The notes under the pieces: model-generated
Databases searched by the model: none
The model's input: only the letters and a program-made list of their open reading frames with translations
Told to the model about the DNA's origin: nothing
Assembly (NCBI GenBank): GCA_018710795.1
Contig: DVJH01000004.1
Location: 1 to 35,907 of the forward strand
Direction: 5' to 3'
DNA: 35,907 nucleotides
From: Candidatus Galligastranaerophilus gallistercoris
Lineage (GTDB): Bacteria; Cyanobacteriota; Vampirovibrionia; Gastranaerophilales; Gastranaerophilaceae
Position numbers and translations under genes: made by a program
Shown: one piece after another, positions 11,162 through 16,426 of the stretch
Layout of the letters: each line of letters opens with the position of its first letter
Position numbering within the stretch: the stretch's first letter is position 1

Positions 11162-14100
11162 TTATTTAATTTTGGTAAAAGTAAGATTTGTAAAAAATTT
11201 GTTCATTTGATCTTTTGTTAACACTACGGTTTTATTTGTATGCCACGGGTTTGTAATCCTGAATAAAGTTTCTCCGCCGTCAGACATAAACGGTTCAACC
11301 GTGTATGCATGGTTTCCTACTATATCATAAGTTCTGTCTAAAAAGGTCGAATCGCTTATTCCTTTTGTTCCGCCCGTAATTATATATTGGTCCCAGCTTG
11401 CAGGATCGTTTATAATTGCGCTTACGTTTTTGTTGTCAAGGATATTGCCGCTTGCCACATTGTATGTGGAATACGCATTCGTATCGGTTAAGCCGAATCG
11501 TTTCAGCACATCTTCCATGCGTCCGCCGTTACCCCTTAATGTATTTGCAACAAAACTGGGATCTGCGCCTGAATTTATTAAATTAATTTTACCTTCGAGT
11601 TCTTGTATTAATTTTTGGTTATTATATAGTAATGCGTTGTTGTATCTTTGTAATAAATCCGTTGTGCCGTCCGATAAAAGTTCAAGTCCGTATAAATATT
11701 CGACCATTTTTATCCCGTCAGCCCCGTCGATAACAAGTTTTTCGCCGCCCACAATTTCTTCTGCATTAATATCGTAATCCATGTATGAATTTGCAACATA
11801 ATCCGTTATGTTTTTACCTTCTGCTATGGTCAGACCCACTTTGCTGTTTGGTATACTTATGGTTAAGCTGCCGTCTGCATTTTCTGTAAAACATTGAAGA
11901 ATATTAACTCTTGTCTCCGGAGTCTTCATCATGGCGCTCAATGTGCTTACAAGATAACAGTCTCCTATTTTTTGTTGGAAAGAAGCATATCTGCTTACGG
12001 GCGGGAACAATTCCATATATTTTTCTGCAGAAATATTCAATTCTTGCAATGTGCCATCAGCAAGTTTAATTGAAATATTATCTGTGCCGTCTATTCTGCA
12101 TACATCGCCGACTTGAATAGTTCTTGCCGCAGTTGCGGAATCTGCAAATTTTTGAACAAATATATCTATTTCGTCCGTGCCCGAATCAAAAGCTTCATAT
12201 AATAAGTCTATGTCTTTTATAAGCTCTGAGTTTACGTTTTGCAAATCCTCGGGTTTAATGCCTTCAAGCCCTTTTGCCGGAAGTTTCCCGTTGCTTGTTA
12301 AAATGTTTATTTTGTCGGCAAATTGTATCAGTTCGTCTTCGTTTAATTCAACAAAATCGTTTGTTGAGACGACAAGAAGTTTGCCGTTTCCGTCAAATAT
12401 ATATTCAAAATTGCTGCCGTTTATATCGGTTGCGCTAAAAGATCTTAATCTTCCAAAGTTGTCTATATCTATATTTGTTGCCGTACTCATTATATTTGCG
12501 ATATTTTCGGAAACATCATTGTTCGCAGATACGAACCCGCCCATATTTTTATGAATTGCGTTTGCAATAGCTGGCATGGTTGTTTGTGCTTCAAGGGTAC
12601 TGTTTCTTAAAACATCTAATGCCAAATCGTCGCTCAGTCCCGCTTTTTTGAGAGCTCCCAATGCATCTTGCGCATTTTGCGTAAGTGTCGTCATCGCATA
12701 TCTGTTAACCTGTCCGTTTGTTAACAGGCTGTCATCGAGTTTTGAAGCTATTATATCGGCAAGTTCGTTCCCGCTGTTTCCTTCTGCAAGTGCTCTGTTG
12801 ACAAGATTGCCAAGATCGGATGCTTCTGCAATGTTTCCTATTCCGGACACCGTATCGCCTGCCGCTCCCAATCCGACATTAAATACCGAACCGATACTTC
12901 CGCCCATAAGAGCCGTTTGTCCGAGACCCTCAAGAGTAAAGGTTGTATCTCCGCTTGCAACGCTTGCAAAATATTCACCCGTAGCACCGATGCTGCCGTC
13001 AATAAACCCTTCTGCTGCTCTGCCTGCGCTTTTTGTTCCGAAGTTTACCAAAGCATTTTTCATATATTCTTTAAATGTTGTAGAAACCGCCGTTCCGGTT
13101 GAATTGCCGCCAAGCATGCTCGTAACCGCCGAGCCCGCCTTAGAAGCAAGCGTACCGGAAAATCCCGTTGCGGCACCAATTAAAGCGTCGCCTGCCGCTT
13201 CCTGAAGCGAATAGTTAAAATCGGTTGTGCCGTCTCCGTCTGCGTCATATATACTGTCGATTGTATTCAATCCGACATTGGTGCCGGCACCGACCGCTGC
13301 GCCCAAAAGCAAAGAAGCGCCTCCAGTAAACGGTGCCGCTGCAACGGCAGCCGCCGCAACAACGCCCGTGATAACGCCGTTAACGGCTTCTTTTGCCGTA
13401 TTTTGGGTTGCAACATAATCCTGAATTGATTCCATTGCTTTTGAATTTCCGGTTTGCAGCAGATTTTCGGGACTTTGAGAATATTCTTTTACCATATTTA
13501 CAACTTCATCAAGGCTGACCTGATTTTCCCCCGCCGTGTCGTTAGCGGTTTCTTGTGTTGTTTCTTCGGGGTTTTTGGCGGAATCGTATGCCAAAAGCTC
13601 CGATAAATTTTGAACATTAAAATCTCTGCCCGTTATTGATTTATACATTGCGGCAAAATCAGCGGGGCTTGAACAATCTGCAAGGTTTTGAATCATATCT
13701 TTATAATGTTCAACCTGTGTTTGCATTTCCGATTCGCTTGTTCCGAATCCGAATATATCGTTAACAAAGCTTATGCCTTTGCTTATAATACCCTGATTGT
13801 TTTTGGCGTTTTCCATATCCGCAAACAATAAATCGGCTTGTTCCGCTAAAATGTTTGTTATATCTTCCGTGGTAACCGTTTCGCCGTTTACCGTGAACGT
13901 TCCGTTATCAAGTGCGGAGAATGTATTTAGGGCGTTTAAAGCATTTTGGCTTTCATTATTCATATACGCCTGCAAATTGTCGCCTTCAAGTTCGCTTATC
14001 GGTACAACTTGTAATTTGCCCAATTCTTCTTCGCTTAAGCCCTCAAATTCTAAAACGATATTTCCGTTTTCATCAAGCGCAACTTCCTTGCTTCCGTATA

Positions 14101-16426: not shown

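What the first reader, a model, noticed from the sequence alone, without database searches (positions are those of the whole stretch)
11162..16426. Giant protein ending in a calpain-like Cys-His-Asn protease core
The last 280 or so residues of this ORF carry three motifs, in calpain order, that match the papain-fold calpain (peptidase C2) active site. FQQKIGDCYLVSTLSA matches calpain QGxxGDCWfLaA and keeps the oxyanion-hole Gln at -6 from Cys1514. VGNHAYTVEP matches GHAYSV (His1730). FRITNPWH matches lRNPWG (Asn1750). Residue numbers use the ORF track. Upstream are a long acidic, heptad-like E/A/Q-rich region and a Gly/Ala-rich hydrophobic module. I could not find a signal peptide or any secretion-associated N-terminal domain that I recognise. 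Calpain-like domains are rare in bacteria, and I do not know of a characterised example with this architecture. The layout (long delivery or scaffold region, enzymatic C-terminus, small coupled downstream gene) resembles a polymorphic toxin or effector.
Basis: partly seen in the sequence, partly recalled or inferred. Interest (0 to 1): 0.8.

Follow-up and report, generated by a model that had tools for sequence, protein, structure and literature searches.

The report
Giant bacterial protein ending in calpain-like protease
A 1,778-residue protein from an uncultured gut bacterium related to cyanobacteria (Gastranaerophilales) ends in a divergent, apparently active calpain-type cysteine protease, and this protease end plus a small partner gene behaves like a swappable cassette, as in bacterial toxins and effectors.

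Summary
The ORF is window 11162-16498 on the minus strand (1,778 aa; the likely true start is M25 at 16426). It carries Q1508, C1514, G1658-G1659, H1730 and N1750 in calpain order.

A single-sequence Pfam scan falls just short (PF00648, 20.9 bits against a cut-off of 23.8). An exhaustive search found 518 related clusters, in which Q, C, H and N/D are 99-100% conserved. The family profile hits almost only calpains in the PDB (best E=1.9e-7). A confident AlphaFold model (pLDDT 94) matches only calpain protease cores among its 31 significant Foldseek hits.

All named relatives are Gastranaerophilales/Vampirovibrio MAGs. The protein is modular: N-terminal region, acidic helical region, a conserved Gly/Ala-rich hydrophobic module (motif APFTGGAS), a linker and the protease. 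In other proteins that module is fused to HExxH, RelA/SpoT, lethal-factor-like or kinase-like domains.

At a syntenic locus in a related genome, the last ~555 residues and the downstream 100-aa gene are replaced together. That small gene follows the protease gene in 9 loci.

The calpain-like protease call is solid (~0.9). The exported toxin/effector-plus-inhibitor reading is plausible but unproven (~0.45): no secretion signal or secretion system was found. I class it as a new variant of a known kind.

The parts
11162..16498 (-). Giant ORF, 1,778 aa. The probable true start is M25 at 16426.
   Evidence: Full-length homologues are P0011 (39% identity over residues 140-1374) and P0002 (37%). Orthologous ~1,800-aa ORFs occur in L005, L006, L007 and L015.
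11165..12181 (-). Calpain-like (MEROPS C2-type) cysteine protease core, residues 1440-1778. Key codons: Q1508 (11975-11977), C1514 (11957-11959), G1658-G1659 (11522-11527), H1730 (11309-11311), N1750 (11249-11251).
12182..12835 (-). Linker region, residues 1222-1439, of unknown fold. It belongs to the variable C-terminal cassette.
   Evidence: It has no similarity to P0152/L014 beyond residue 1221 and no PDB sequence match.
12836..14005 (-). Conserved helical module, residues 832-1221. It has a QGxISK...GIGTSE segment and a Gly/Ala-rich hydrophobic part.
   Evidence: It is shared with many family proteins and with proteins that lack the protease. The AF2 model is all-helical but of low confidence (pLDDT 52).
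13274..13390 (-). Hydrophobic helical-hairpin candidate, residues 1037-1075, with the nearly invariant turn motif AAPFTGGAS.
   Evidence: This is the only stretch with Kyte-Doolittle hydropathy above 1.4. P, F, T, G, G and S are invariant in alignment A7.
14006..15511 (-). Acidic E/A/Q-rich region, residues ~330-831, presumed coiled coil.
   Evidence: Composition. There is a weak coiled-coil-type NCBIfam hit to SEC10/PgrA (E=9e-4, far below its cut-off).
15512..16426 (-). N-terminal region, residues 25-329, of unknown function. It has no signal peptide.
10842..11144 (-). Small 100-aa partner gene, 17 nt downstream, with the nearly invariant motif SDFANSPRRY(I/V)(I/V)EL. Candidate cognate inhibitor or immunity protein.
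   Evidence: It lies directly after the calpain-like gene in the window, L003-L008, L015 and L043. It is absent from syntenic L014, where the protease end is replaced.
16528..16923 (-). 131-aa membrane protein with a ComEA-like helix-hairpin-helix C-terminus, 29 nt upstream of the giant ORF.
   Evidence: It is adjacent to the giant gene: upstream in the window, L005-L007, L014, L015 and L042, and downstream in L004, L008 and L043. The L043 homologue carries a precomputed PF12836 HHH_3 hit.
16932..17279 (-). DUF6812 gene, possibly the first gene of the operon. A promoter-like site lies at 17335-17307 on the minus strand.
   Evidence: It is syntenic only in the close relative L014, so it is probably not part of the conserved unit.

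Best explanation
Shown. The last 339 residues form a catalytically intact, divergent calpain-type (peptidase family C2) protease core. Cys1514 sits at the start of the central helix. Gln1508 is placed to act as the oxyanion-hole residue. His1730 and Asn1750 lie on the beta-barrel lobe. The protein belongs to a large, uncharacterised family that, as far as named genomes show, is carried by gut Gastranaerophilales/Vampirovibrionia (non-photosynthetic relatives of cyanobacteria).

Inferred. The giant protein is a modular exported effector or toxin. A long acidic helical stalk and a conserved Gly/Ala-rich hydrophobic module (APFTGGAS hairpin) would serve as scaffold and membrane-insertion or delivery device. 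The C-terminal cassette (linker plus calpain-like protease) would be the interchangeable enzymatic warhead that cleaves target-cell proteins. The 100-aa downstream protein, which is gained and lost together with the protease end, would be its dedicated inhibitor or immunity protein, keeping the protease silent in the producer. This would parallel staphostatin for staphopain and Spi for SpeB (these two parallels are from my own knowledge).

My confidence in the protease identity is about 0.9. My confidence in the exported effector/toxin-plus-inhibitor mechanism is about 0.45. The single confidence value given for this explanation (0.5) refers to the whole statement, including the inferred mechanism.
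For: Protease identity:
- The motifs are at the stated residues.
- An exhaustive HMMER search found 518 representative clusters at E<=1e-3.
- Across 141 domain instances, Q-6 is present in 140, Cys in 141, GG in 111 and 132, His in 140, Asn in 130 plus Asp in 10, and Pro in 140.
- Of the 19 PDB hits to the family profile, 17 are calpains. The best is E=1.9e-7, with all four motifs aligned.
- PF00648 is hit by 56 of 77 members. Two relatives score above the gathering cut-off: P0007 at 51.7 bits and P0062 at 36.6 bits.
- The AF2 model has pLDDT 94.4, with Cys at the N-terminus of helix 75-86 and His and Asn on adjacent strands.
- The top 31 Foldseek PDB hits are all calpain cores, at probability 1.0. 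The top viral hit is also a calpain-family protease.

Modularity and cassette:
- In 129 of 137 proteins the domain is at the extreme C-terminus.
- Locus L014 is syntenic with the window at 77-83% nucleotide identity on both sides. Protein similarity (66%) stops at residue 1221. The protease end and the small gene are replaced there by an unrelated ~190-aa C-terminus with no small gene.
- The hydrophobic module also occurs with HExxH C-termini (P0154, P0155, L023, L026), ABC1 kinase-like (L029), RelA_SpoT (P0038) and anthrax-lethal-factor-like (P0062) domains.
- The small gene follows the protease gene in 9 loci, with a nearly invariant motif.
- Module members give weak Pfam hits to the pore-forming or translocator families ApoL and SseC.

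Precedent: Rawlings 2015 describes bacterial calpain homologues as mostly C-terminal domains, some in giant toxin-like proteins.
Against: - No signal peptide, known trafficking domain (LXG, WXG100, RHS, PAAR, TPS, RTX) or secretion-system gene was found in the protein, the window or the related loci.
- The hydrophobic module could not be modelled with confidence and matches no known fold. Its ApoL and SseC hits are far below threshold.
- The small protein has no detectable homology to any inhibitor or immunity family.
- More distant family members (L002, L009, L010, L021) lack the small gene.
- Only one syntenic swap was found.
Confidence: 0.5

Rival explanations
1. Cell-resident, membrane-anchored regulatory protease. 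The hydrophobic hairpin would anchor the protein in the producer's own inner membrane, as in plant DEK1 calpain. The coiled coil would act as a scaffold. The calpain-like domain would perform limited proteolysis of endogenous substrates, and the small protein would be a regulator or substrate.
For: There is no signal peptide or secretion machinery. The neighbours are chromosomal housekeeping genes in every locus. GC3 equals that of the neighbours, so the gene is not recently acquired. Published cyanobacterial calpains were predicted to be cytosolic (PMC9380684). The conserved link to a membrane HhH protein suggests a cell-envelope complex.
Against: A housekeeping protease would not be expected to lose its catalytic end and partner gene at a syntenic locus. 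It would also not be expected to share its scaffold with RelA/SpoT, lethal-factor-like, HExxH and kinase-like domains. The family is large and fast-diverging (518 clusters at 50% identity, with multi-copy proteins such as P0007), which looks more like conflict-driven diversification.
Confidence: 0.25
2. Autoprocessing (release) protease. The C-terminal calpain-like domain would act in cis to cut the giant precursor and free other modules. This would resemble the cysteine protease domains of MARTX and large clostridial toxins (comparison from my own knowledge), rather than attacking foreign substrates.
For: In multi-domain relatives the calpain-like domain stays at the C-terminus while the internal domains vary: P0038 has RelA_SpoT and P0062 has an ATLF-like domain. 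P0007 has four copies spaced about 900 residues apart. A co-encoded inhibitor would also suit a protease that must stay off until delivery.
Against: The window protein has no other recognisable enzymatic module to release. Most family members are ~500-600-aa proteins that consist of little more than a short N-terminal region plus the protease. Proteins that have the same hydrophobic module but lack the protease exist, so the protease is not an obligatory part of the scaffold.
Confidence: 0.2
3. Prophage or tailocin tape-measure-like structural protein: long, helical, with Gly-rich hydrophobic segments and a C-terminal peptidase used for cell-wall or host-envelope penetration.
For: The overall layout resembles tape-measure proteins (from my own knowledge). 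There are very weak hits of the small protein to a tape-measure chain (E=0.85) and of the model to a phage tape-measure segment (E=0.024).
Against: No phage genes lie in the window or in any related locus. No relative was found in 2.9 million viral contigs. The significant structural matches are to calpain-family proteases, not to phage lysins.
Confidence: 0.03

Closest known systems
Eukaryotic calpain protease core (PC1+PC2; MEROPS C2, Pfam PF00648), e.g. calpain-1, -2 and -9 (PDB 1tl9, 3bow, 2p0r)
   Same: The same order and spacing logic of Gln(-6)-Cys, the GG motif, His-Ala-Tyr and Asn-Pro-Trp. The same two-lobe fold by Foldseek (probability 1.0, ~325 aligned columns) and by profile alignment.
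   Different: Sequence identity is only 10-14% and TM-score about 0.45. There are 216 residues between Cys and His, against about 157 in calpains, because of a long helical insert (model helices 155-228). Tyr replaces Trp after the Cys. The position of the calpain Ca-site-1 Asp (Cys-9) is Ala or Ser across the family, so calcium control is probably absent. There are no C2-like or penta-EF-hand domains. A family-specific beta-rich lead-in (FVxKF...GDVCxI...IKLxxG...LFPP) precedes the Cys helix.
Bacterial calpain homologues catalogued by Rawlings 2015 (PMC4631099), including the 3,754-aa Salinispora protein with Tox-PL and YwqJ-deaminase domains and the WXG100-fused forms
   Same: The peptidase domain is usually C-terminal. 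Lengths reach several thousand residues. Calcium sites are mostly missing. Signal peptides are mostly missing. Some members sit in polymorphic-toxin-like proteins.
   Different: That survey found only 66 bacterial homologues and called them rare. This family alone has 518 clusters at 50% identity. Most of its members fall below Pfam's cut-off. It uses a different, undescribed N-terminal and middle architecture (APFTGGAS module) and has a conserved 100-aa partner gene. No paper in the library links calpain with Melainabacteria or Gastranaerophilales.
Polymorphic toxin systems (Zhang, Aravind et al. 2012, PMID 22731697, cited; details from my own knowledge)
   Same: A conserved N-terminal and central part with alternative C-terminal enzymatic domains. 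A small gene directly downstream changes together with the C-terminal domain. Papain-fold peptidases are among the known toxin tips.
   Different: No recognised trafficking domain and no linked secretion system. The immunity function of the small gene is untested. No arrays of orphan C-terminal/immunity cassettes were seen downstream.
Co-transcribed cysteine-protease/inhibitor pairs: staphopain-staphostatin, SpeB-Spi, and calpain-calpastatin (from my own knowledge)
   Same: A small protein encoded right after a papain-clan protease gene and strictly co-occurring with it. Its invariant SPRRYIIEL stretch loosely recalls the calpastatin subdomain-B TIPPxYRxLL motif. That resemblance is recalled from memory and was not tested.
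   Different: There is no detectable sequence homology to any of these inhibitors. Binding and inhibition are untested.

Membership tests
Peptidase family C2 (calpain), Pfam PF00648 | Catalytic Cys, His and Asn (or Asp) in that order | tested here: met
   C1514, H1730 and N1750 are present. Across 141 family domains, Cys is present in 141, His in 140, and Asn in 130 plus Asp in 10. All three align to the calpain catalytic residues.
Peptidase family C2 (calpain), Pfam PF00648 | Oxyanion-hole Gln six residues before the Cys, within QxxxGDC[WYF] | tested here: met
   Q1508 is present, and Gln occupies that position in 140 of 141 domains. G-2 is present in 130 and D-1 in 109 (plus 29 Asn). The profile aligns ssQssiGDCYll to icQGelGDCWLL of calpain-9.
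Peptidase family C2 (calpain), Pfam PF00648 | Two-lobe protease-core fold (PC1 helical lobe, PC2 beta-barrel lobe) closest to calpains among papain-clan families | tested here: met
   The AF2 model has pLDDT 94.4. All 31 Foldseek hits at E<=1e-3 are calpain cores. The next families (C39, SpvD, cathepsins) appear only at E>=6e-3 over about 115 columns.
Peptidase family C2 (calpain), Pfam PF00648 | Score at or above the curated Pfam gathering threshold (23.8 bits) | tested here: not met
   The full-length protein gives no hit. The isolated domain scores 20.9 bits at E=2.1e-4. Relatives P0007 (51.7 bits) and P0062 (36.6 bits) pass the threshold. By this criterion it is a divergent branch at the edge of the family model.
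Peptidase family C2 (calpain), Pfam PF00648 | Ca2+-binding sites of the classical protease core | tested here: inconclusive
   By positional mapping, the site-1 Asp (Cys-9) is Ala1505, and Ala or Ser across the family. Site 2 could not be mapped reliably. Most bacterial homologues lack these sites (PMC4631099), so this feature does not decide membership.
Peptidase family C2 (calpain), Pfam PF00648 | Cysteine endopeptidase activity | not testable with these tools
   This needs expression of residues 1440-1778, wild type against C1514A.
Polymorphic toxin / effector system | Conserved N-terminal and central region with alternative, unrelated C-terminal domains in close relatives | tested here: met
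   Window against syntenic L014: 66% protein identity up to residue 1221, then no similarity. The same module is fused to HExxH, ABC1-like, RelA_SpoT and ATLF-like domains elsewhere.
Polymorphic toxin / effector system | Small immunity gene directly downstream that changes with the C-terminal domain | tested here: inconclusive
   The genetic pattern is met: the gene is present in 9 loci with this protease subfamily and absent from L014. Protective or inhibitory function was not tested, and distant family members lack the gene.
Polymorphic toxin / effector system | Recognisable trafficking domain or signal (Sec signal, LXG, WXG100, RHS/PAAR, TPS, RTX) or a linked secretion system | tested here: not met
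   No such Pfam or NCBIfam hit. None of 152 proteins has an N-terminal hydrophobic signal. No secretion genes lie in the window or the related loci.
Anti-phage defence systems (PADLOC) | Match to a known defence protein model | tested here: not met
   The giant protein, the small protein and DUF6812 give no PADLOC hit at E<=0.01. The 131-aa HhH protein gives one weak hit (pVip, E=0.0012, 16.4 bits).

The most novel reading that the evidence does not exclude
Gut Gastranaerophilales carry a lineage-specific, previously undescribed class of modular effectors that export or translocate themselves. A shared Gly/Ala-rich APFTGGAS helical module would insert into a target membrane (host epithelial, protist or rival bacterial). 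It would carry interchangeable warheads: calpain-like protease, HExxH protease, RelA/SpoT, kinase-like. The 100-aa partner would be a bacterial functional analogue of calpastatin that blocks the calpain-like warhead in the producer. Export might run through the flagellar-type export apparatus that many of these genomes retain.
Probability: 0.15. Interest if true: 0.8.

Novelty: new variant of a known kind. Interest (0 to 1): 0.6.

Why it matters
Bacterial calpain homologues have been described as rare and are almost uncharacterised. This work finds a family of at least 518 sequence clusters, most of which standard annotation misses. As far as named genomes show, it is concentrated in Gastranaerophilales, an uncultured gut lineage enriched in non-industrialised human populations whose interactions with the host are unknown.

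If these modular proteins are effectors, they are the first candidate host- or competitor-directed weapons of that lineage. They would also bring a new membrane-delivery module and a new protease-inhibitor pair. The divergent but confidently modelled core adds a data point to the debate over whether eukaryotic calpains originated in bacteria.

Tried and rejected
- **Single-sequence searches of the full protein.** Pfam and NCBIfam gave nothing useful: only DUF5666 and a coiled-coil-type SEC10/PgrA hit, both below threshold.
- **PDB sequence searches with little input.** phmmer with the C-terminal 322 aa, and the two-sequence profile A1, found no calpain. Sensitivity came only after the exhaustive representative search.
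- **Word-indexed homologue search.** It returned just 1, 4 and 5 hits. It is too insensitive for this family.
- **PADLOC defence models.** No hit for the giant protein, the small protein or DUF6812; only one weak pVip hit (E=0.0012) for the 131-aa HhH protein.
- **Middle module structure.** The AF2 model was poor (pLDDT 52) and Foldseek found nothing at E<0.5. The ApoL, SseC and Goodbye hits are far below threshold and I keep them only as a lead.
- **N-terminal 311 aa and linker 1234-1439.** No PDB sequence match.
- **Small protein.** No Pfam, NCBIfam or PDB relative.
- **J-domain reading of the alternative C-terminus of P0152 (AYRRISQLIHPD).** Not supported: no Pfam hit, and PDB J-domain hits only at E about 0.6-1.
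- **Phage or tape-measure origin.** Rejected: no viral-contig relatives and no phage neighbours.
- **Recent horizontal transfer inferred from the raised GC (41-45% against 33%).** Rejected: GC3 is 0.35, like the neighbours, and the excess lies in codon positions 1 and 2, reflecting amino-acid composition.
- **Apparent second copy of the protease N-lobe at residues 1235-1335.** This appeared in an iterated jackhmmer run. I judged it to be profile drift, because the direct family HMM gives no significant hit there.
- **Alignments too diverse for the locus scans.** The narrower A3 and A7 worked.
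Full report
**1. The observation**

The window contains one very long ORF on the minus strand, 11162..16498, of 1,778 codons. It has a GGATGGA stretch 6 nt upstream and is the more likely start.

- FQQKIGDCYLVSTLSA starts at 1507, giving Q1508 at -6 and C1514.
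- VGNHAYTVEP starts at 1727, giving H1730.
- FRITNPWH starts at 1746, giving N1750.

A fourth motif typical of calpains, LRGNGGRMED (G1658-G1659), lies between Cys and His.

The compositional description also holds. Residues 300-800 are 23-27% Asp+Glu. Residues 1000-1300 are 26-36% Ala+Gly, with a single strongly hydrophobic stretch at 1037-1075. A 100-aa ORF follows 17 nt downstream, at 10842-11144 on the minus strand.

**2. Is it calpain-like?**

Single-sequence searches were negative or marginal. The full protein gives no Peptidase_C2 hit, PDB sequence searches find no calpain, and the word-indexed homologue search finds one relative.

An exhaustive HMMER search of 1.84 billion representative proteins with a two-sequence profile then found 518 clusters at E<=1e-3, 342 of them at E<=1e-10. 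I extracted 141 complete domain instances and aligned them. Conservation at the key positions:

| Position | Residue | Count (of 141) |
|---|---|---|
| Cys-6 | Gln | 140 |
| Cys-2 | Gly | 130 |
| Cys-1 | Asp / Asn | 109 / 29 |
| 1514 | Cys | 141 |
| 1658, 1659 | Gly, Gly | 111, 132 |
| 1730 | His | 140 |
| His+2 | Tyr | 136 |
| 1750 | Asn / Asp | 130 / 10 |
| 1751 | Pro | 140 |
| 1752 | Trp | 82 |

A 77-sequence family profile searched against all PDB sequences returns 19 hits, 17 of which are calpains. The best is calpain-9 (2p0r) at E=1.9e-7. The alignment places QssiGDCYll on QGelGDCWLL, gngGs on lkGGs, nHaYsi on GHAYSV and tNPw on RNPW.

Scanned one by one against Pfam, 56 of the 77 members hit PF00648, with a best E of 1.2e-8. 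The window's isolated domain scores 20.9 bits (E=2.1e-4), just under the 23.8-bit gathering score. Two relatives exceed the cut-off: P0007 at 51.7 bits and P0062 at 36.6 bits.

AlphaFold2 on residues 1440-1778 with that alignment gave a confident model (mean pLDDT 94.4, pTM 0.91). Cys1514 lies at the first turn of helix 75-86. His1730 opens strand 292-299. Asn1750 follows strand 305-310. This is the arrangement expected for a papain-clan active site.

Foldseek against the PDB gave 31 hits at E<=1e-3. Every one is a calpain protease core (calpains 1, 2, 3, 5, 8 and 9), at probability 1.0, over about 325 aligned columns, with TM about 0.43-0.46. Other papain-clan families appear only at E>=6e-3 over about 115 columns. 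The best hit among viral structures is also a calpain-family protease, from a giant algal virus.

I could not access model coordinates, so I did not measure triad distances. That remains to be done.

**3. How it differs from classical calpains**

- Sequence identity is 10-14%.
- Cys and His are 216 residues apart, against about 157 in calpains, because of a long helical insertion (helices 155-228 of the model).
- Tyr replaces Trp after the Cys.
- The residue at the position of the calcium-site-1 Asp (Cys-9) is Ala1505, and Ala or Ser throughout the family. This suggests no classical calcium switch. Rawlings reports the same for most bacterial homologues (PMC4631099).
- A family-specific, highly conserved beta-rich lead-in (FVxKF...GDVCxI...IKLxxG...LNIS...Y.ELFPP) precedes the catalytic helix.

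**4. Whose gene is it?**

The window is a metagenome contig (ENA ERZ27280755, 51 kb). It has a low GC content of about 33% and diderm markers, MlaA here and LpxB/LpxI/LptC next to a relative.

A scan of 185,579 species genomes found 8 related loci. Seven are titled Candidatus Gastranaerophilales, Gastranaerophilaceae or Vampirovibrio, and one is titled 'uncultured bacterium'. No relative was found in 2.9 million viral contigs.

The raised GC of the gene (41-45%) comes from codon positions 1 and 2. GC3 is 0.35, the same as the neighbours. There is therefore no compositional sign of recent transfer.

**5. Architecture**

Local BLAST and iterated searches show full-length homologues: P0011 (1,821 aa, 39% identity over residues 140-1374) and P0002 (1,955 aa, 37%). 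Orthologous ORFs of about 1,800 aa occur in L005, L006, L007 and L015.

A middle module, residues about 832-1221, is shared much more widely. It starts with a helical part containing QGxISK...GIGTSE...YKxITG. It continues into a Gly/Ala-rich hydrophobic part whose core is a hairpin-like stretch with the nearly invariant turn AAPFTGGAS.

Its AF2 model is all-helical but unreliable (pLDDT 52, and about 30 in the Gly/Ala part), and it matches no known fold. Individual members give weak, sub-threshold Pfam hits to ApoL, SseC and Goodbye. These are all membrane-inserting or pore-forming helical domains. I treat this as a lead, not a finding.

None of the 152 family proteins has an N-terminal signal-peptide-like segment, and 129 of 137 carry the protease at the extreme C-terminus.

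**6. Evidence for a swappable cassette**

Searching with the middle module recovered proteins that have it but lack the protease:
- P0154 and P0155 end in a domain with HELNH.
- L023 and L026 contain HExxH motifs.
- L029 carries an ABC1 kinase-like domain.

Among proteins that do have the protease, P0038 also has a RelA_SpoT domain and P0062 an anthrax-lethal-factor-like segment.

The most telling case is the contig of P0152 (L014), which is syntenic with the window. It carries response regulator, S30AE, GHL10, DUF6812, the 129-aa HhH protein, the giant gene and M48 peptidase in the same order. The nucleotide matches are:

| Window | L014 | Identity |
|---|---|---|
| 20092-14094 | 1-6000 | 82.5% |
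| 13998-13185 | 6008-6854 | 76.7% |
| 10811-9874 (M48 gene) | 7760-8707 | 78.5% |

At the protein level, 66% identity runs from residue 832 to 1221 and then stops. So residues about 1222-1778 (linker plus protease) and the 100-aa gene are replaced in L014 by an unrelated ~190-residue C-terminus with no small gene.

The small gene lies directly after the protease gene in nine loci: the window, L003-L008, L015 and L043. It carries a nearly invariant SDFANSPRRY(I/V)(I/V)EL motif. More distant family members (L002, L009, L010, L021) lack it.

A third gene also travels with the giant gene, on either side of it. It encodes a ~125-130-aa membrane protein with a ComEA-like helix-hairpin-helix C-terminus (precomputed PF12836 hit in L043). 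It stays in place in L014. I have no explanation for this link.

**7. Mechanism**

What is shown: an intact calpain-type catalytic core; a modular protein; a C-terminal cassette that co-varies with a small partner gene; and a shared hydrophobic module fused to several toxin-like or effector-like enzymatic domains.

What I infer as most likely (about 0.45): the protein is exported or delivered by contact, the hydrophobic module helps membrane insertion or translocation, the calpain-like domain is the warhead, and the small protein is its cognate inhibitor or immunity factor. The staphopain/staphostatin and SpeB/Spi gene pairs are functional parallels, cited from my own knowledge.

Rival readings:
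- A cell-resident, membrane-anchored regulatory protease (about 0.25). It is favoured by the lack of any secretion signal or machinery and by the housekeeping neighbourhood.
- A cis-acting release protease of a multi-effector precursor (about 0.2). It is favoured by the constant C-terminal position next to variable internal domains and by the four-copy protein P0007.
- A phage tape-measure-like protein (about 0.03). It is disfavoured.

**8. Comparison with what is known**

Rawlings (2015, PMC4631099) catalogued 66 bacterial calpain homologues and called them rare. He noted that the peptidase domain is usually C-terminal, that lengths range from 258 to 3,754 residues, that most lack signal peptides and calcium sites, and that some are fused to toxin domains (Tox-PL, YwqJ deaminase) or to WXG100. 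The reviewer, L. Aravind, pointed to polymorphic toxins with papain-fold peptidase tips. A 2022 survey of cyanobacterial calpains found 13 sequences, predicted to be cytosolic, and does not mention Melainabacteria. No paper in the library links calpain with Melainabacteria, Gastranaerophilales or Vampirovibrio.

The general idea, a calpain-like domain at the end of a giant and possibly toxin-like bacterial protein, is therefore known. What is new here:
- the size and lineage restriction of this divergent subfamily, most of it below Pfam's cut-off;
- the APFTGGAS module;
- the conserved 100-aa partner and the HhH neighbour;
- direct evidence for cassette exchange at a syntenic locus.

**9. Verdict**

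The calpain interpretation is supported, with confidence about 0.9. The toxin/effector analogy is plausible but unproven. I class the finding as a new variant of a known kind, with interest 0.6.

Noticed in passing
window 6264-9822 (+): Three tandem paralogous membrane proteins of ~385-390 aa, with weak sub-threshold DUF3137 hits (one also DUF2207_C). They lie just beyond the M48 peptidase gene.
   Followed up: no
window 26230-26823 (+): A 197-aa ankyrin-repeat protein (Ank_2, E=1.6e-17), which is a eukaryote-like domain in this bacterial genome.
   Followed up: no
family proteins P0001, P0019, P0021, P0036 and others (N-termini): 17 of 152 family proteins begin M-x(0-2)-I-N (MQINTN, MRINS, MKINF), which recalls flagellin and hook-protein N-termini. 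Their N-termini are N/S/K-rich and none has a Sec signal. A 2026 preprint notes that many Gastranaerophilales keep flhB, fliI and flgG, possibly for secretion. The enrichment is modest, and I did not compare it with a matched set of other proteins.
   Followed up: partly
window 16528-16923 (-); L043 11156-11524; L004, L005-L008, L014, L015, L042: A small membrane protein with a ComEA-like HhH (HHH_3) C-terminus is always adjacent to the giant gene, upstream or downstream. It stays in place when the protease cassette is swapped. The reason for the link is unexplained.
   Followed up: partly
L021 6272-14071 vs L022/L032 6311-8956: A 2,600-aa protein ending in the calpain-like domain is 95.6% identical over its first ~870 residues to an 882-aa ORF in two other contigs. 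This is either a truncated allele or a recent domain loss or gain.
   Followed up: no
L014 3668-7734: In the syntenic contig the giant gene is called as two overlapping ORFs (780 aa and 577 aa), with a ~95-nt gap relative to the window at 14094-13998. This could be a frameshift, a pseudogene or an assembly error. Its alternative C-terminus has an AYRRISQLIHPD stretch that looks like a J-domain HPD motif, but the match is not significant.
   Followed up: partly
P0007 (4,875 aa): It carries four tandem copies of the calpain-like domain about 900 residues apart, plus a weak RTX-repeat hit near the N-terminus.
   Followed up: no
window 11000-16000: The giant gene is 41-45% GC in a ~33% GC window. 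GC3 (0.35) equals that of the neighbours, so the excess reflects Ala/Gly/Asp/Glu content rather than foreign origin.
   Followed up: yes
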